From sequence record OQ378934.1: a stretch of 64,000 nt of DNA. One strand, written 5' to 3'. Position numbers and translations under genes: made by a program. Position 1 is the first letter of the stretch, and each line of letters opens with the position of its first letter. This stretch comes from Escherichia phage LH2. Below are positions 9,013-60,109 of this stretch, one piece after another. The notes under the pieces were generated by a model. The model was not told the origin of the DNA. It made no database searches and saw only the letters and a list, made by a program, of their open reading frames with translations.

Positions 9013-9016
9013 GTTA

Positions 9017-9046
9017 AGGACTCCTTCGGGAGTCCTTTTTTATTTT
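9017..9046 (+). terminator. Rho-independent terminator (aggactcc-ttcg-ggagtcct + T-run)
   Basis: Perfect 8 bp stem with UUCG tetraloop followed by tttttatttt. Confidence 0.8.
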
Positions 9047-9065
9047 CCAAAGATTGCACAAAGTT

Positions 9066-9095
9066 GTTTACAGTATGGTTCCTTTGTGATAGTAT
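9066..9095 (+). promoter_or_regulatory. T4 early-type promoter (GTTTAC, 18 nt spacer, TAGTAT/TATTAT)
   Basis: gtttac 9066-9071; -10-like 9090-9098. Confidence 0.4.
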
Positions 9096-9122
9096 TATCT
9101 TACACAAACAAAGGAGAATAAA

Positions 9123-9173
9123 ATGAAAACGATTAATCGGGTTACGGTCATTGGGCTGATGTTGAAATTATAA
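9123..9173 (+). CDS. 16-codon mini-ORF with strong SD (aaggag), hydrophobic peptide MKTINRVTVIGLMLKL
   Basis: aaggagaataaaATG; stop 9 nt before the NADAR ATG. Confidence 0.3.
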   Translation: MKTINRVTVIGLMLKL

Positions 9174-9182
9174 GTATTAAAG

Positions 9183-9641
9183 ATGTCTGAATTAGAGATT
9201 AGAAGCAATTTTAGATGGCCATCATGTGCATTAAGCAATTTCGCCCAATGGCCTTTCGTTATGGATGGTATCCAATTTGGAGGTCTCGAAGGATTCCTCC
9301 AAGGATGTAAGGTGAAAAATGTTGAACACCAACGTCGTATATTTGGGTTATCTGGGCTTGCCGCCCAACAAGCTGGAAGGTCTTATGCTAGAGCTCAGGA
9401 CCGTGGCACGTTGTTCTGGCTTGGAACTCCGTTTTCAAGATACTCCTCAGCGTGGAAAGAATTATACACAAATGCATATTTTGAAGCAGCGTTCCAAAAC
9501 AAGGGCTTTCGTGATGCATTACAAGTCTCGAAAGGAAAAGTTTTGAAGCACAGCATGGCTAGTGGTCTAACAAAAGATGATACAATACTAACCGAAGCTG
9601 AATTTATTGATGTGTTAAACCTATTAAGAGACTCTCTATGA
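9183..9641 (+). CDS. NADAR-domain protein (YbiA-like), 152 aa
   Basis: SNFAQWPFVMDGIQFGGLEGFLQGCK resembles the YbiA/NADAR core (E. coli YbiA FSNFAAWPIKVDGKTWPTSEHYFQAQK); GC content visibly higher than flanking genes. Confidence 0.6.
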   Translation: MSELEIRSNFRWPSCALSNFAQWPFVMDGIQFGGLEGFLQGCKVKNVEHQRRIFGLSGLAAQQAGRSYARAQDRGTLFWLGTPFSRYSSAWKELYTNAYFEAAFQNKGFRDALQVSKGKVLKHSMASGLTKDDTILTEAEFIDVLNLLRDSL

Positions 9642-10501
9642 AGCCTACTATTTTAACTGATATTGATGGAGTATGTTTAAGCTGGCAATCAGGTCTTCCT
9701 TATTTTGCTCAGAAATATAATCTTCCATTAGAACATATTTTAAAAATGATCCAAGATGAGAAATTTATTTCTCCGGGTAAACTCTTTAATTGTGATGAAG
9801 AACTTGGCGTCAAGTTAATTGAAAAATACAATCGTTCAGATTTTATTCGTTACTTGTCTCCGTATAAAGATGCCCTGTGTGTAATTAACAAATTAAAAGA
9901 AGATTATAATTTTGTAGCTGTTACAGCATTGGGTGATTCTATTGACGCTCTGTTAAATCGTCAATTTAATTTGAATGCTCTTTTTCCTGGTGCCTTCTCA
10001 GAAGTAATGATGTGTGGTCATGATTCTTCAAAAGAAGAGTTATTCAAAAAGGCAAAAGAGAAATATAACGTAATTTGTTATATTGACGATCTCGCTCACC
10101 ACTGTGACCACGCGAGTGAAATATTGAATGTTCCTGTTTATTGGATGGCTCGAGGAGAGCGTGACAATATTCCAAAAACTGCGCAGCGAGTTTATACATG
10201 GAATGATGTAGAAAATAAGCTTTTTTCGCCGAAGGAAAATAAAGAAAGTTTTGATAGTGAAAAAGCTATAAAAGATGTAATTGAGAAGATGGTTAAAAAC
10301 GATTCTTTTCGTTGGAACACTACCTGGAGAACTCCTGGATTTAATCCGTATAATCCATATTATACACATCCATATAATCCATATTATACACACCCGTATC
10401 ATATGAATCCATTCCATACGTGGAGTTATACTAAGCCTGGTGATGCAGGGTATTTTAATAGATTTACTAGTGGTGATAATATTTTCCAAGGAGCATTCTA
10501 A
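9638..10501 (+). CDS. HAD-superfamily hydrolase (possible nucleotidase/phosphatase) with C-terminal Tyr/Pro-rich tandem repeat, 287 aa
   Basis: N-terminal HAD motif I LTDIDGVCL; C-terminal NPYNPYYTHPYNPYYTHPYHMNPFH. Confidence 0.55.
   Translation: MKPTILTDIDGVCLSWQSGLPYFAQKYNLPLEHILKMIQDEKFISPGKLFNCDEELGVKLIEKYNRSDFIRYLSPYKDALCVINKLKEDYNFVAVTALGDSIDALLNRQFNLNALFPGAFSEVMMCGHDSSKEELFKKAKEKYNVICYIDDLAHHCDHASEILNVPVYWMARGERDNIPKTAQRVYTWNDVENKLFSPKENKESFDSEKAIKDVIEKMVKNDSFRWNTTWRTPGFNPYNPYYTHPYNPYYTHPYHMNPFHTWSYTKPGDAGYFNRFTSGDNIFQGAF
10346..10410 (+). repeat. 24 bp direct tandem repeat (about 2.5 copies) inside the HAD gene 3' region
   Basis: ccgtataatccatattatacacat / ccatataatccatattatacacac / partial third copy. 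Confidence 0.8.
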
Positions 10502-10770
10502 TGTTTGTCGTTCACACTATTTATGAAAATGAAGGTAATACTACACGTGATTACGGTCACGTAAATCAATTTTTTAGATGCAATCCAGAATTCCGAGCTC
10601 AAAAAGACGAACGAATTTTTAAAAAATGTGTAGAGCAAGGTTTCATTTACGTCAAGCACTGGATGCAAGGAAATAAAGTTAGAACTACATATCATAAGTC
10701 TTTGCCTGAGCTTAATGATGAATTGATTTATAATAGAGCTGTAAATCAAACTCTGAAGGATGAACAATGA
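10501..10770 (+). CDS. Hypothetical protein, 89 aa
   Basis: Coupled ORF (ATGA overlap with gene 30 start). Confidence 0.45.
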   Translation: MFVVHTIYENEGNTTRDYGHVNQFFRCNPEFRAQKDERIFKKCVEQGFIYVKHWMQGNKVRTTYHKSLPELNDELIYNRAVNQTLKDEQ

Positions 10771-12227
10771 TTCTTAAAATTCTGAATGAAATAGCATCTA
10801 TTGGATCAACTAAGCAGAAGCAAGCAATTCTTGAAAAGAATAAAGATAATGAATTGCTTAAACGGGTATATCGTCTGACTTATTCTCGTGGGTTACAGTA
10901 TTATATCAAGAAATGGCCTAAACCTGGTATTGCTACCCAGAGTTTTGGAATGCTGACTATTACCGATATGCTTGACTTCATTGAATTCACGTTAGCTACT
11001 CGGAAATTGACCGGAAATGCTGCAATTGAGGAATTGACTGGATATATCACCGATGGTAAAAAGGATGATGTTGAAGTTTTGCGTCGAGTGATGATGCGAG
11101 ACCTTGAATGCGGTGCTTCAGTATCTATTGCAAACAAAGTTTGGCCAGGTTTAATTCCTGAACAACCTCAAATGCTGGCAAGTTCTTATGATGAAAAAGG
11201 CATTAGTAAGAATATCAAGTTTCCAGCTTTTGCACAGTTAAAAGCAGATGGAGCTCGGTGTTTTGCTGAAGTCCGAGGTGATGAATTAGATGATGTTCGT
11301 CTTTTATCACGAGCTGGTAATGAATATCTAGGATTAGATCTTCTTAAGGAAGAGTTAATCAAAATGACTGCTGAAGCCCGCCAGATTCATCCAGAAGGTG
11401 TGTTAATTGACGGCGAATTGGTATACCATGAGCAAGTTGAAAAGGAACCAGAAGGCCTAGATTTTCTTTTTGATGCTCCTGAAATCAGTAAAGCTAAAGA
11501 GTTTGCCGAAGTAGCTGAATCTCGTACTGCTTCTAATGGAATCGCCAATAAATCTTTAAAGGGAACTATTTCAGAAAAAGAAGCCAAATGCATGAAGTTT
11601 CAGGTCTGGGATTATGTTCCGTTGGTAGAAATATACGGTCTTCCGGCGTTTCGTTTAAAATATGATGTACGTTTTTCTAAACTAGAACAAATGACATCAG
11701 GATATAATAAAGTAATTTTAATTGAAAACCAAGTAGTAAATAACCTAGATGAAGCTAAGGTAATTTATAAAAAATATATTGACCAAGGTCTTGAAGGTAT
11801 TATTCTCAAAAATACCGATGGATTGTGGGAAAATGCTCGTTCAAAAAATCTCTATAAATTTAAAGAAGTAATTGATGTTGATTTAAAAATTGTAGGAATT
11901 TATCCTCACCGTAAAGACCCTACTAAAGCAGGTGGATTTATTCTTGAATCAGAGTGTGGAAAAATTAAAGTAAATGCAGGTTCAGGCTTAAAAGATAAAG
12001 CCGGTGTAAAATCACATGAACTTGACCGTACTCGCATTATGGAAAACCAAAATTATTATATTGGAAAAATTCTAGAGTGCGAATGCAACGGCTGGTTAAA
12101 ATCTGATGGCCGCACTGATTACGTTAAATTATTTCTTCCAATTGCGATTCGTTTACGTGAAGATAAAACTAAAGCTAATACATTTGAGGATGTATTTGGT
12201 GATTTTCATGAGGTAACTGGTCTATGA
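10767..12227 (+). CDS. 30: ATP-dependent DNA ligase (gene 30), 486 aa
   Basis: MILKILNEIASIGSTKQKQAILEKNKDNELLKRVYRLTY... with adenylation motif QLKADGARCF; matches T4 gp30. Confidence 0.9.
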   Translation: MILKILNEIASIGSTKQKQAILEKNKDNELLKRVYRLTYSRGLQYYIKKWPKPGIATQSFGMLTITDMLDFIEFTLATRKLTGNAAIEELTGYITDGKKDDVEVLRRVMMRDLECGASVSIANKVWPGLIPEQPQMLASSYDEKGISKNIKFPAFAQLKADGARCFAEVRGDELDDVRLLSRAGNEYLGLDLLKEELIKMTAEARQIHPEGVLIDGELVYHEQVEKEPEGLDFLFDAPEISKAKEFAEVAESRTASNGIANKSLKGTISEKEAKCMKFQVWDYVPLVEIYGLPAFRLKYDVRFSKLEQMTSGYNKVILIENQVVNNLDEAKVIYKKYIDQGLEGIILKNTDGLWENARSKNLYKFKEVIDVDLKIVGIYPHRKDPTKAGGFILESECGKIKVNAGSGLKDKAGVKSHELDRTRIMENQNYYIGKILECECNGWLKSDGRTDYVKLFLPIAIRLREDKTKANTFEDVFGDFHEVTGL

Positions 12228-58378: not shown

Positions 58379-60109
58379 TTATAAACCTACGTCTATACGG
58401 CTACCATCAATTGTGTATTGACCAGATGAAATAGAACTCATAGATGCCATTTTTTCTGTCCAATCACCACCAACGTCCCAATCAACTGTCCCAGCAACTT
58501 TCCAAGAAAGATTTCCATTTACTGTGTTAGTTTGATTTCCTTCAACTAAAGTGGTAGCATCTCCTTTAACTGTAATGTCAGCATTACCTTCAACTACAAT
58601 AGTAACATTACCTTTTACTAGGATAGTTCCATTACCTTCAACTGTCTTGGTTTCATCGCCACGCACAAATATTGTGTTGCTTCCATCTATTTGGTGAAGA
58701 CGATTATCCATGTTGTAATAAATTTCTGATCCACCGACGTTAGTCTTTTTATCGCCGGCTACCAAAAAATTACCATCAGCATTTGTTATATCATACAAAT
58801 TATCAACAGTTTTTCTTGTTCTTCTTCCTGATGGTGATACTTCCTCATACGTTCCAGTCGGATGAACTAATCTGTATCGCTCTTGCCCAGGGGTATCATC
58901 AAATTCCTGAATATGACCGCTTTCAGTTTCCATTGTGTGAACATACGGATACTCACCTTTATATGAAGAAACAGGTTCTTTGAATAAAATTCTCGAATCA
59001 TTCGGAATAGGAGGGTCAGCCGGGTCAGAAGACTTTGCTACAGTAGCAGCCATTGCAGACAAAGACCTAGCTGGTGTTTTCACTTCAATACCGTATGATT
59101 CCAAATTGCCTGTAAGAATAATCATGGTAACACGGGATGCACGGCCTTTTGTTTGTTGATACCACAATGAATCACGACCGGCTTTATATGCTTTTTCCCA
59201 ATCTCCGGCTAACATAGCAGTTAACATTGTGTTAAATTTAGCTACACCGCCAACACCCATCTGAAATGCCATATTTTCTAATGCCATTTGACGAGAACGA
59301 TTAACTGCTTTCCAAACTGGGCCAACTTTAGAATGTGATTTAATGTCACGTTGCATATCAGCTAAATCACGTTCAAATAAAGTTACCGCTTCTTCCATTG
59401 TAATAGAACCTGGATTTCCGGTAATTTCACGACCAACTTGTTTTGATAAAACTTTATTAATTTGGGCCATATCACGAACTGGCTGCTTCATGATAAGATG
59501 ACCAATACCAATTGTCGGATATCCTTCTGTATCCCAATAAACTTTTAGTCTTAATCCTTCATCACGGCGAAGCATTTCAGCCATTGACATATTTGGATTA
59601 TCATCAGTTGGAATTTCTGATAATGGTCTATCATCAGGATTTATCGCAGTGTCTAGATTGCTATCTTGGATAATATTAGAAGACGAATCATATCCTACTT
59701 CTCCGCCTTGGTTTAATACGTTAGTATCATTTCCTAGACGTCTAGGATACTGCCCAGTTGGGTCAGAAAATCCTTCAAGTCTATTAGGTTTTTCGCGAAC
59801 TATCCCACCATACGTGCCAAGGACAATTCCGTTAGTTTTCCATTTGTCTAAAAAATGACCATAAACTCTAGTTCCTTCTACCGGACCAGTAACGGAGCCT
59901 CCAATTCCAGACATTGCTGCAGAAGTTATAGGTTGAATAACTGACATCCATGGTAATTTATCAGTTGGAATACCCATTACGTCGCCTTGTGCTCTTTGAG
60001 GTGGATGCAGACCAACTACACGAACACGAACACGACCTAATTTTAATGGGTCCATTCTATCTTCAACAACACCAACAAACCAATTAAGATTATTACTTAT
60101 CATTTCCAT
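58379..60109 (-). CDS. 5: Baseplate central spike / tail lysozyme gp5, 576 aa
   Basis: Lysozyme-like core GLRLKVYWDTEGYPTIGIGHL and C-terminal beta-helix repeats VEGN...; matches T4 gp5. Confidence 0.9.
   Translation of the reverse strand: MEMISNNLNWFVGVVEDRMDPLKLGRVRVRVVGLHPPQRAQGDVMGIPTDKLPWMSVIQPITSAAMSGIGGSVTGPVEGTRVYGHFLDKWKTNGIVLGTYGGIVREKPNRLEGFSDPTGQYPRRLGNDTNVLNQGGEVGYDSSSNIIQDSNLDTAINPDDRPLSEIPTDDNPNMSMAEMLRRDEGLRLKVYWDTEGYPTIGIGHLIMKQPVRDMAQINKVLSKQVGREITGNPGSITMEEAVTLFERDLADMQRDIKSHSKVGPVWKAVNRSRQMALENMAFQMGVGGVAKFNTMLTAMLAGDWEKAYKAGRDSLWYQQTKGRASRVTMIILTGNLESYGIEVKTPARSLSAMAATVAKSSDPADPPIPNDSRILFKEPVSSYKGEYPYVHTMETESGHIQEFDDTPGQERYRLVHPTGTYEEVSPSGRRTRKTVDNLYDITNADGNFLVAGDKKTNVGGSEIYYNMDNRLHQIDGSNTIFVRGDETKTVEGNGTILVKGNVTIVVEGNADITVKGDATTLVEGNQTNTVNGNLSWKVAGTVDWDVGGDWTEKMASMSSISSGQYTIDGSRIDVGL

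What the first reader, a model, noticed from the sequence alone, without database searches (positions are those of the whole stretch)
9638..10501. HAD-family hydrolase with a C-terminal Tyr/Pro-rich tandem repeat
The N-terminus has the HAD motif I (DIDGV) typical of phosphatases and nucleotidases. The C-terminus is encoded by a 24 bp direct repeat (10346-10410) giving NPYNPYYTHPYNPYYTHPYHMNPFH, a low-complexity aromatic module unusual for a small phage enzyme and potentially variable in copy number. It is translationally coupled to the NADAR gene (ATGA overlap), suggesting they work together, for example in nucleotide or ADP-ribose-phosphate processing.
Basis: partly seen in the sequence, partly recalled or inferred. 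Interest (0 to 1): 0.5.

Follow-up and report, generated by a model that had tools for sequence, protein, structure and literature searches.

The report
T4 gp30.2 phosphatase with variable-repeat tail
This is the T4 gene 30.2 protein of a T4-like coliphage: a predicted small-molecule phosphatase most like deoxyribonucleotidases, whose floppy tyrosine/proline-rich tail gains and loses an 8-amino-acid repeat between phage isolates; real and tidy, but of modest novelty because the function is still only inferred.

Summary
ORF 9638-10501 (287 aa) is the ortholog of phage T4 gene 30.2. It lies between 30.3 (AdfN, the NADAR anti-DarTG1 enzyme) and 30.1/DNA ligase.

The 24-bp repeat (10344-10399, 2.3 copies) is not chance: 0 of 100 simulations reach its score. 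It is a genuine copy-number polymorphism, with natural isolates carrying 1, 2, 2 plus an extra NPY, or 3 units, always in frame.

The tail is predicted disordered. It is under relaxed purifying selection (pN/pS 0.33 versus 0.04 for the enzyme domain).

The proposed partnership with NADAR is weak. ATGA/TAATG overlaps run through the whole 30.3-to-alt.1 gene chain. AdfN lies upstream in only 31 of 78 related loci, whereas DNA ligase lies downstream in about 65.

The most likely function is an early/middle nucleotide monophosphatase carrying a fast-evolving docking tail. Substrate and partner are unproven. Interest is moderate.

The parts
9638..10501 (+). Gene 30.2 ortholog, 287 aa (stop TAA 10499-10501)
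   Evidence: ORF list. 91-94% identical to T4 gp30.2 / P0001. PHROG 420, E=3e-89. The exact sequence is on 115 public contigs.
9638..10222 (+). HAD-superfamily phosphatase domain, residues 1-195, with a helical C1 cap (about residues 12-86)
9659..9673 (+). HAD motif I, D8-I-D10-G-V12 (nucleophile Asp and Asp+2 general acid/base)
   Evidence: D8 and D10 are invariant in 99 close and 67 distant homologs.
9923..9925 (+). HAD motif II, Thr96
   Evidence: Nearly invariant. Aligns with the motif II Thr of 3bwv.
10031..10033 (+). HAD motif III, Lys132
   Evidence: Invariant.
10085..10090 (+). HAD motif IV, Asp150-Asp151
   Evidence: Nearly invariant. Aligns with the DD of 3bwv and SDT1.
10241..10297 (+). 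Charged amphipathic helix after the domain, residues 202-220
   Evidence: AF2 helix, pLDDT 63-87. The equivalent helix 194-223 in the P0039 model has pLDDT about 94. pN/pS 0.26.
10298..10498 (+). Predicted disordered Pro/Tyr/His/Trp-rich C-terminal tail, residues 221-287
   Evidence: pLDDT 41-67. 47% aromatic and 20% Pro in residues 236-265. pN/pS 0.33.
10325..10339 (+). W-R-T-P-G, short motif conserved in the tails of related genera
   Evidence: Present in all 13 Tequatrovirus alleles, in RB69 and in 11 of 58 long tails.
10344..10399 (+). 24-bp tandem repeat (VNTR), 2.3 copies, unit ATCC(G/A)TATAATCCATATTATACAC. Encodes NPYYTHPY twice and is built on a 9-bp NPY sub-repeat.
   Evidence: Natural alleles carry 1, 2, 2+NPY and 3 units.
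10433..10468 (+). KPGDAGYFNRFT, a diverged allele of the distal motif KPGGIEYLYNRPT / GTGIEYLNRQPT
   Evidence: Two alleles occur within Tequatrovirus. The motif class is found in 17 of 58 long tails.
10488..10493 (+). AAGGAG Shine-Dalgarno sequence for gene 30.1, embedded in the last codons of 30.2 (..QGAF)
   Evidence: Read from the sequence. Explains part of the invariance of the GDNIFQGAF terminus.
9183..9641 (+). Gene 30.3 = AdfN, NADAR DNA ADP-ribosylglycohydrolase (neighbour)
   Evidence: Pfam PF08010, E=1e-67. Function from PMC11825919.
10501..10770 (+). Gene 30.1 (DUF3045), start overlaps the 30.2 stop (TAATG)
   Evidence: Pfam PF11243, E=6e-63. ORF list.
10767..12227 (+). Gene 30, ATP-dependent DNA ligase, the most conserved neighbour of 30.2
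   Evidence: ORF. T4 annotation. Synteny in 63-65 of 78 loci.
9067..9095 (+). Early-type promoter (TTTACA-17-TAGTAT with TG) that now precedes 30.3-30.2 directly
   Evidence: Consensus scan. Identical to the T4 sequence upstream of 30.8.

Best explanation
The ORF is the ortholog of phage T4 gene 30.2. In T4 this protein has early RNA and appears at middle times. It has three parts.

(1) Residues 1-195 form a Mg2+-dependent HAD-superfamily phosphatase. It has the DxDxV nucleophile/acid pair, Thr, Lys and DD motifs, and a helical C1 cap. A C1 cap closes over a small substrate. The nearest characterised relatives are the 5'(3')-deoxyribonucleotidases (NT5C/cdN/mdN). The most likely reaction is therefore hydrolysis of a (deoxy)nucleoside monophosphate, or a similar small phospho-metabolite, to the nucleoside plus phosphate during the period of phage DNA metabolism.

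(2) A charged helix, residues 202-220.

(3) An intrinsically disordered Pro/Tyr/His/Trp-rich tail. It carries short conserved motifs (WRTPG, and a diverged GIEYLxNRPT-type motif). I infer that it acts as a flexible docking arm for a partner not yet identified.

The 24-bp repeat is a slippage or unequal-recombination polymorphism inside that tail. It adds or removes one NPYYTHPY unit in frame. It changes spacer length rather than switching the gene on or off.

Shown here: fold, motifs, repeat, copy-number variation, synteny, selection pattern. Shown in T4 by others: expression. Inferred: phosphatase activity, nucleotide substrate, docking role of the tail.
For: Identity: the region is 92-97% identical to many Tequatrovirus genomes with the T4 gene order cd-31-rIII-30.9-30.3-30.2-30.1-30-alt.

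HAD fold:
- D8, D10 and K132 are invariant; T96, D150 and D151 are nearly invariant in 99 homologs and again in 67 distant ones.
- AF2 pLDDT >93 for residues 1-195.

NT5C link:
- Profile against PDB: best hit is mouse cdN 2jao.
- Broader profile: full-length match to 3bwv, a putative 5'(3')-deoxyribonucleotidase, E=4e-5.
- NT5C is the commonest Pfam hit among distant family members, 24 of 67, best E=6.5e-9. It hits 18 of 99 close ones.
- Viral structural neighbours are annotated as 5' nucleotidases or deoxyribonucleotidases.
- In the alignment, invariant W16, F43 and Y64 fall opposite three aromatic residues of cdN. I recall these as lining its nucleoside pocket; that is from memory and was not verified.

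Nucleotide-metabolism context in distant relatives: MazG next door (L083, L090), and a GMP reductase/IMPDH-family gene (L088).

Expression: the T4 30.2 protein was detected and classed 'early RNA, middle protein', like ligase and 30.1 (PMC9697503 supplements).

Tail:
- pLDDT 41-67. The second model shows only a nascent helix at IEYLN.
- pN/pS is 0.33 in the tail versus 0.04 in the domain.
- All eight length classes seen differ by multiples of 3 nt.
- Natural alleles carry 1, 2, 2+NPY and 3 units.
- Motifs recur across genera.
Against: - The window protein matches no Pfam or NCBIfam model, even at E<=1. The NT5C link is transitive and weak for this clade.
- No biochemical or genetic data on gp30.2 were found.
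- No partner for the tail is identified, and AF2 does not dock it on the domain.
- About 40% of family representatives, and nearly all the more distant relatives, have no tail. The tail is therefore dispensable for catalysis.
- Frame conservation could serve translational coupling to 30.1 and ligase rather than any tail function.
Confidence: 0.55

Rival explanations
1. One reading: gp30.2 works with the NADAR enzyme AdfN (gp30.3). For example, it might dephosphorylate an ADP-ribose-derived product. Or it might be the 'additional T-even protein' that AdfN seems to need in order to neutralise DarT1 in vivo.
For: The genes are adjacent and overlap by ATGA in Tequatrovirus and neighbouring genera. 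PMC11825919 reports that AdfN fully rescues only T-even-type infections, cannot replace DarG1 in uninfected cells, and suggests a further T-even protein may be required. RB69, the phage that was rescued, has its own gp30.2.
Against: - Stop/start overlaps link every gene from 30.3 to alt.1, so the overlap is not specific.
- Only 31 of 78 related loci have AdfN within 1.5 kb upstream, and 21 of 29 long-tailed homologs lack it.
- AdfN alone removes ADP-ribose from DNA in vitro. Guanine de-ADP-ribosylation needs no phosphatase step.
- In T4, 30.3 protein is classed late and 30.2 middle.
- Surveys of viral NAD/ADPr systems do not list a HAD partner for phage NADARs.
Confidence: 0.1
2. gp30.2 is a nucleic-acid end-healing 3'-phosphatase, like the HAD domain of T4 Pnk. 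It would prepare 3'-OH ends for the DNA ligase encoded just downstream.
For: DNA ligase is the most conserved neighbour: 63-65 of 78 loci, sometimes with overlapping genes. There are weak profile hits to the polynucleotide kinase PHROG 415 (E=0.0012) and to HAD_PNKP in 1 of 67 distant members. Pnk-type phosphatases appear among viral structural neighbours. 30.2 has the same expression class as ligase.
Against: The model has a helical C1 cap of about 75 residues between motifs I and II. From general knowledge of the HAD superfamily, such a cap is typical of small-molecule HADs, whereas Pnk/PNKP phosphatases are capless. Nucleotidase hits are stronger and full-length. T4 already has Pnk. Gene order in T4-like genomes is broadly conserved, so adjacency alone is weak evidence.
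Confidence: 0.1
3. The tail has no function of its own. It would be a drifting low-complexity extension, kept open only so that ribosomes terminate at the TAATG junction and re-initiate on 30.1 and then ligase. On this view the repeat polymorphism is neutral.
For: - Tails are absent in about 40% of family representatives and in most distant relatives.
- At least five unrelated motif classes exist, and 14 of 58 long tails have no recognisable motif.
- Low pLDDT.
- The invariant C-terminus overlaps the Shine-Dalgarno sequence of 30.1.
- Indels are frequent.
Against: pN/pS in the distal tail is 0.33, well below neutrality. WRTPG and GIEYL-type motifs persist across genera that are about 50% identical in the enzyme domain. 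Coupling could be kept with a much shorter ORF, as in tail-less relatives, yet long tails persist in all 29 long-tailed loci examined.
Confidence: 0.25

Closest known systems
5'(3')-deoxyribonucleotidases, Pfam NT5C PF06941 (human/mouse cdN and mdN; S. epidermidis 3bwv)
   Same: HAD core with DxDGV motif I, Thr, Lys and DD motifs. Helical C1 cap inserted after motif I. Similar size, about 190-200 aa. Best full-length sequence and structure matches. Commonest Pfam hit among distant family members.
   Different: The window protein is below every Pfam threshold and 16-21% identical in structural alignments. It belongs to a separate, mostly T4-like-phage clade (PHROG 420). It carries a 90-residue helix plus disordered tail that NT5C enzymes lack. 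Activity is untested.
Phage T5 Dmp, deoxynucleoside-5'-monophosphatase (anti-Kongming factor)
   Same: An early phage-encoded phosphatase with a DxDGT-type motif I that acts on dNMPs. It shows that a phage nucleotidase can reshape nucleotide pools and blunt nucleotide-based immunity (bioRxiv 10.1101/2024.12.20.629578).
   Different: No detectable homology beyond motif I: hhalign probability 1.4%. Different genomic setting (first-step-transfer DNA). No repeat tail.
T4 polynucleotide kinase/3'-phosphatase (Pnk), HAD phosphatase domain
   Same: A HAD phosphatase encoded by the same phage group and functionally tied to a ligase. Weak profile similarity.
   Different: From general knowledge of the family, the Pnk phosphatase is capless and acts on polynucleotide ends. 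gp30.2 has a C1 cap and no kinase domain.
In-frame tandem-repeat (VNTR) polymorphisms in coding regions, e.g. bacterial contingency and surface-protein repeats
   Same: A perfect short tandem unit whose copy number differs between otherwise near-identical isolates: 1, 2 or 3 units.
   Different: The unit length is a multiple of three, so it varies length rather than switching expression. It lies in a cytoplasmic early enzyme rather than a surface or receptor-binding protein.

Membership tests
HAD (haloacid dehalogenase-like) superfamily, phosphatase type | Motif I DxDx(T/V), with the nucleophile Asp and an Asp at +2 | tested here: met
   D8-I-D10-G-V12. D8 and D10 are invariant in 99 and 67 homologs.
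HAD (haloacid dehalogenase-like) superfamily, phosphatase type | Motif II Ser/Thr, motif III Lys/Arg, motif IV DD or (G/S)DxxxD | tested here: met
   T96 (>=90%), K132 (invariant), D150-D151 (>=90%). They align to the same motifs of 3bwv.
HAD (haloacid dehalogenase-like) superfamily, phosphatase type | Rossmannoid alpha/beta core fold | tested here: met
HAD (haloacid dehalogenase-like) superfamily, phosphatase type | Match to a curated HAD sequence model above threshold | tested here: not met
   No Pfam or NCBIfam family at E<=1 for the window protein. Only sub-threshold hits in relatives: PF00702 in 22 of 99, HAD_2 in 10 of 99.
HAD (haloacid dehalogenase-like) superfamily, phosphatase type | Mg2+-dependent phosphoryl transfer through an aspartyl-phosphate intermediate | not testable with these tools
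   Needs an enzyme assay with a D8N control.
NT5C 5'(3')-deoxyribonucleotidase family (PF06941) | Significant match to the family model | tested here: not met
   No hit for the window protein. 18 of 99 close and 24 of 67 distant relatives hit NT5C (best E=1.2e-4 and 6.5e-9). The family profile matches 3bwv at E=4e-5. The relationship is transitive only.
NT5C 5'(3')-deoxyribonucleotidase family (PF06941) | Helical C1 cap between motifs I and II forming the nucleoside pocket | tested here: inconclusive
   Helices 16-26, 32-40, 46-49, 54-65, 68-72 and 77-86 lie between strand 1 and strand 2. W16, F43 and Y64 align with aromatic residues of cdN. The role of those cdN residues is recalled from memory and was not verified (one search found no source).
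NT5C 5'(3')-deoxyribonucleotidase family (PF06941) | dNMP phosphatase activity | not testable with these tools
   Needs biochemical assays on 5' and 3' (d)NMPs.
AdfN/NADAR-linked module (two-gene functional unit) | Conserved co-occurrence and adjacency with the NADAR gene | tested here: not met
   AdfN lies upstream in 31 of 78 loci. 21 of 29 long-tailed homologs lack it within 5 kb. Only the flanks were searched, not whole genomes.
Coding-region VNTR | Tandem unit whose copy number differs among near-identical genomes | tested here: met
   1 unit in LDJ77, 2 in the window and AV121, 2+NPY in RPN226, 3.3 in BYEP01. TRF score 98 versus a maximum of 71 in 100 simulations.
Phase-variable (on/off) contingency locus | Repeat changes shift the reading frame or promoter spacing | tested here: not met
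   Units are 24 and 9 bp. All eight length classes observed differ by multiples of 3, and every allele keeps the same C-terminus.

The most novel reading that the evidence does not exclude
gp30.2 is a counter-defence enzyme. In this reading its nucleotidase domain removes a nucleotide that host immunity needs. That could be a precursor or signal, as T5 Dmp does for Kongming. Or it could be the missing T-even-specific helper of AdfN against DarTG1. The repeat-expanding, motif-swapping tail would then be the interface in an arms race with a host factor or a phage partner. My evidence does not exclude this. The gene sits in a hyperplastic early region next to a proven anti-defence gene. The tail evolves about eight times faster than the enzyme at non-synonymous sites, with frequent in-frame indels. 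No function is known.
Probability: 0.1. Interest if true: 0.7.

Novelty: new variant of a known kind. Interest (0 to 1): 0.35.

Why it matters
Gene 30.2 has been in the T4 sequence since the 1980s. It is kept next to the DNA ligase gene across very diverse T4-like phages, yet no function is recorded for it.

Placing it as a capped, NT5C-like phosphatase gives a concrete set of substrates to test. It adds a candidate to the list of phage enzymes that edit nucleotide pools. That topic has become relevant to nucleotide-based bacterial immunity.

The tail is a clean natural example of an in-frame minisatellite in a phage early enzyme. It could serve as a strain marker for Tequatrovirus isolates and as a handle for finding the protein's partner.

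The work also corrects a tempting inference. The overlap with the NADAR gene is not evidence of a two-gene system.

Tried and rejected
- Direct family assignment: Pfam and NCBIfam gave nothing for the protein itself. PHROGs gave only 'unknown function'. A single-sequence PDB search gave noise.
- Homology to T5 Dmp: rejected. hhalign aligned motif I only, probability 1.4%. Dmp itself has no Pfam hit.
- Rosetta-stone link to gp30.1: P0014 (302 aa) is HAD + DUF3045. In the related locus L028 the two genes overlap by 14 nt in different frames, so the fusion is probably a frameshift or an assembly error. The extra C-terminal domain of phiR1-RT P0067 shows no similarity to gp30.1.
- Domain fusions in long distant homologs (P0137, P0175, P0185, P0232): no informative second domain.
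- Tail docking on the enzyme: a second AF2 run on a homolog with the conserved GIEYL motif still left the tail at pLDDT 43-62.
- Tail motifs elsewhere: no other ORF in the window carries WRTPG, NPY repeats or the EYL motif.
- DNA-level role of the repeat: each unit contains TATAAT, and one sigma-70-like match lies at 10325-10354. However, promoter-like hits are at the chance level (16 found versus 14.9 expected).
- Literature: no paper in the library mentions gp30.2. The T4 genome review was not held. A search for the cdN pocket residues found nothing. The Kongming preprint does not discuss T4.
- The afdb50 fold library was unavailable.
Full report
**What the region is.** The window comes from a T4-like coliphage (Tequatrovirus). 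The stretch 9000-10800 matches 712 phage records; the best is Shigella phage SH-1 at 97.5%. The ORFs follow the T4 order cd, 31.2, 31.1, 31, rIII, 30.9, 30.3, 30.2, 30.1, 30 (DNA ligase), alt.1, alt, all on the + strand. The finding's ORF, 9638-10501 (287 aa), is the ortholog of T4 gene 30.2. T4 gp30.2 has 278 aa, and the cluster representative P0001 is 91-94% identical. The exact 287-aa sequence is already present on 115 public contigs. The upstream gene 9183-9641 is gp30.3 (Pfam Phage_30_3, E=1e-67). It was renamed AdfN in 2025: a NADAR DNA ADP-ribosylglycohydrolase that lets T-even phages escape the DarTG1 toxin-antitoxin defence (PMC11825919). The downstream gene is 30.1 (DUF3045).

**Check of the observation.**
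- DIDGV is residues 8-12.
- The 30.3 stop and the 30.2 start overlap as ATGA at 9638-9641.
- Tandem Repeats Finder reports a 24-bp period, 2.3 copies, 90% matches, score 98 at 10344-10399.
- The two full copies, 10344-10367 and 10368-10391, differ at one base.
- Only two arrays in the whole 64 kb score 50 or more, and this is the best.
- In 100 first-order Markov simulations of the window the highest score was 71.

The other array, 58535-58643, lies in gp5. It encodes the well-known octapeptide beta-helix repeats.

**The enzyme domain.** The protein itself hits nothing in Pfam or NCBIfam, even at E<=1. It belongs to PHROG 420, 'unknown function'. The HAD assignment nevertheless stands on four independent lines.
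1. *Motifs.* In an alignment of 99 homologs, D8, D10 and K132 are invariant, and T96, D150 and D151 are conserved in at least 90%. These are HAD motifs I-IV. The same positions stay conserved in 67 much more distant relatives, 23-47% identical.
2. *Predicted structure.* AlphaFold2 models residues 1-195 at pLDDT above 93, as alternating strands and helices with a helical insertion between strand 1 and strand 2.
4. *Sub-threshold sequence hits.* They point the same way: PF00702 in 22, NT5C in 18 and HAD_2 in 10 of the 99 homologs.

An Asp at +2 from the nucleophile marks phosphatases and phosphomutases rather than dehalogenases. This rests on established knowledge of the HAD superfamily.

**Which HAD subfamily.** An exhaustive HMMER search shows the domain family is larger than the T4-like clade. 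It finds 1266 clusters at E<=1e-3 and 581 at E<=1e-10, nearly all 190-215 aa, i.e. domain only.
- Among 67 of these distant members, NT5C is the commonest Pfam hit (24 members, best E=6.5e-9).
- A profile built from them matches the putative 5'(3')-deoxyribonucleotidase 3bwv over its full length (E=4e-5). It matches pyrimidine nucleotidases around motif IV.
- The narrower profile's best PDB hit was mouse cdN.
- Viral structural neighbours are largely annotated as 5' nucleotidases or deoxyribonucleotidases.
- In distant relatives the gene sits next to MazG (L083, L090) or a GMP reductase/IMPDH-family gene (L088).

I therefore call the domain NT5C-like. I do not file it as an NT5C family member, because it fails the family model. 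Generic subfamily-IA HADs score equally well by fold, so the substrate remains an inference. T5 Dmp, the one phage dNMP phosphatase with a known biological role (anti-Kongming), is not detectably related beyond motif I.

**The tail and its repeat.** After the domain comes a charged helix (residues 202-220). Then comes a stretch with pLDDT 41-67. Residues 236-265 are 47% aromatic and 20% proline.

Comparing alleles in Tequatrovirus genomes gives a clear picture. The segment between WRTPGFNPY and HTW/QTW varies as follows:

| Phage | Segment | Protein length |
|---|---|---|
| TadeuszReichstein | NPY-QTHPF | 275 aa |
| T4 | NPYHPYQTHPF | 278 aa |
| T6 | NLYHPYHPYQTHPF | 281 aa |
| UoN_LDJ77_1 | one HPYYTHPY unit | gene cut at the 5' end of the fetched stretch |
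| window, AV121 | two NPYYTHPY units | 287 aa |
| RPN226 | two units plus an extra NPY | 290 aa |
| BYEP01 | three units | 295 aa |

In BYEP01, Tandem Repeats Finder reports 3.3 copies at 94% matches. I found BYEP01 by searching with a synthetic three-copy allele.

All eight length classes in a 60-record sample differ by multiples of three. Every allele ends in the same GDNIFQGAF. So this is a true in-frame VNTR built on a 9-bp NPY sub-repeat. It is not an on/off switch. A second small polymorphism (SG versus SGSG) exists, as do two alternative alleles of a distal motif (KPGGIEYLYNRPT versus KPGDAGYFNR-F/L/I-T). UoN_LDJ77_1 combines parts of both lineages, which suggests recombination.

**Is the tail functional?** Across 13 Tequatrovirus alleles, pN/pS is 0.04 for the HAD domain, 0.26 for the helix region and 0.33 for the distal tail. 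The tail is thus much less constrained, but it is not neutral.

Across the family, 58 of 99 cluster representatives have a tail of 40-148 residues. The tails are proline-rich (14% versus 4% in the domain) and fall into motif classes:
- GxE(Y/W)L..(Q/R)..T in 17,
- WxxPG in 11,
- L(R/K)A(Y/F/N)Y in 9,
- LLN..ND in 7,
- ALLGM in 4,
- SLRA(S/T)F in 4,
- none in 14.

RB69 has a different tail that keeps TWRTPG. Phages of Acinetobacter, Aeromonas and Vibrio, and the distant relatives, mostly have no tail. A second AlphaFold run on a Klebsiella-phage homolog with the conserved GTGIEYLNRQPT motif gave a confident long helix (194-223). It gave only a low-confidence helical turn at IEYLN, not docked on the domain.

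This pattern is a disordered segment with short conserved islands that turns over between lineages. It is what one expects of a linker carrying short linear binding motifs. That reading is an inference, and no partner is known.

The last codons also contain the Shine-Dalgarno sequence of 30.1 (AAGGAG, 10488-10493). Part of the terminal conservation, and perhaps of the frame maintenance, may therefore serve translational coupling rather than the protein.

**Relation to NADAR.** The ATGA overlap is real but not diagnostic. The same kind of overlap joins 30.2 to 30.1 (TAATG), 30.1 to 30 (ATGA) and 30 to alt.1 (ATGA).

In 78 related loci with a complete gene (IMG/VR):
- DNA ligase lies within 1.5 kb downstream on the same strand in 63, plus two where the genes overlap further.
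- AdfN lies within 1.5 kb upstream in 31.
- 30.1 is present in 24.
- Of 29 long-tailed homologs, 21 have no AdfN in the 5-kb flank.

In T4 proteomics, 30.2 groups with ligase and 30.1 as 'early RNA, middle protein', whereas 30.3 is 'early RNA, late protein' (PMC9697503 supplementary files). AdfN de-ADP-ribosylates DNA in vitro by itself.

The AdfN paper does leave a gap. AdfN cannot replace DarG1 in uninfected cells and barely helps T5 or Bas25, and the authors suggest another T-even protein may be needed. gp30.2 is a candidate only by position, and I give that reading about 10%. A DNA-end phosphatase role alongside ligase is also possible, but the C1 cap argues for a small substrate.

**What is known and what is new.** No paper in the searchable library mentions gp30.2. 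Surveys of viral NAD/ADP-ribose systems and of NADARs do not discuss it. Some database records already label orthologs 'haloacid dehalogenase-like hydrolase' or '5'(3')-deoxyribonucleotidase'. The HAD call is therefore not new.

What I found no record of:
- the NT5C-like placement by transitive profile and fold evidence;
- the family-wide helix plus disordered tail architecture;
- the 1/2/3-copy VNTR;
- the finding that ligase, not NADAR, is the conserved neighbour.

**Verdict.** The object is a HAD phosphatase variant, NT5C-like, with a fast-evolving repeat-bearing disordered tail. It is a new variant of a known kind. Interest is moderate (0.35): a well-defined, testable orphan gene of the best-studied phage, but with no surprising mechanism demonstrated.

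**Limits.**
- Structures are predictions.
- The synteny survey covers 5-kb flanks, not whole genomes.
- The loci are phylogenetically non-independent.
- The pN/pS estimates pool non-independent pairs.
- The role of the cdN aromatic residues is from memory.

Noticed in passing
window 9016-9182: Relative to T4, the window lacks genes 30.8 to 30.4 (about 1.4 kb). The first 16 nt of 30.8 are joined to the last part of 30.4, leaving a 16-codon ORF (9123-9173, MKTINRVTVIGLMLKL). As a result, the terminator (9016-9047) and the early promoter (9067-9095) that precede 30.8 in T4 now sit directly upstream of 30.3-30.2. Phage CJY920 matches the stretch as one piece of the same length, so it seems to share the deletion; most relatives do not.
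   Followed up: partly
window 58535-58643 (minus-strand ORF 58379-60109): This is the only other tandem repeat in the window with TRF score >=50 (24 bp x 4.5 copies). It lies in the gp5 tail-lysozyme/cell-puncturing protein and encodes its known VxGxxxxx beta-helix octapeptide repeats.
   Followed up: yes
window 9638-9641, 10499-10503, 10767-10770, 12224-12227: An unbroken chain of overlapping stop/start codons links 30.3, 30.2, 30.1, DNA ligase and alt.1 (ATGA, TAATG, ATGA, ATGA). This suggests one translationally coupled early/middle unit.
   Followed up: partly
window 9319-9546: The out-of-frame internal ORF annotated in T4 as 30.3' (75 aa) is also open here, inside the AdfN gene. The T4 omics supplement lists it as an early gene with no protein class.
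   Followed up: no
window 10433-10468; L097 (UoN_LDJ77_1): Two sharply different alleles of the distal tail motif circulate in Tequatrovirus. KPGGIEYLYNRPT is T4-like and close to the motif conserved in Klebsiella and Citrobacter phages. KPGDAGYFNRFT is window-like. LDJ77 combines a window-type repeat unit with the T4-type distal motif, which suggests recombination inside the tail.
   Followed up: partly
L028 5001-5910; protein P0014: In one lineage, 30.2 (215 aa) and 30.1 overlap by 14 nt in different frames. A 302-aa HAD+DUF3045 'fusion' protein (P0014, 3 member sequences) exists in public data. It is probably a frameshift or assembly error rather than a true fusion.
   Followed up: partly
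L083 5692-6000, L090 5692-6051, L088 5750-6613: Distant tail-less homologs (28-32% identical), on contigs some of which also carry T4-type genes, sit immediately upstream of MazG-like pyrophosphohydrolase genes or a GMP reductase/IMPDH-family gene.
   Followed up: partly
protein cluster of P0001: The 90%-identity cluster that holds gp30.2 also lists 152-aa AdfN (gp30.3) proteins as members. UniProt now names T4 gp30.3 'Anti-DarT factor NADAR'. The mixed cluster looks like a clustering artefact, perhaps bridged by read-through or fused gene calls.
   Followed up: no
L100 10268-10681 (RB69): In RB69 the truncated 30.3 (frameshift allele described in PMC11825919) ends 42 nt before 30.2. The ATGA coupling seen in T4-type phages is therefore lost there.
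   Followed up: no
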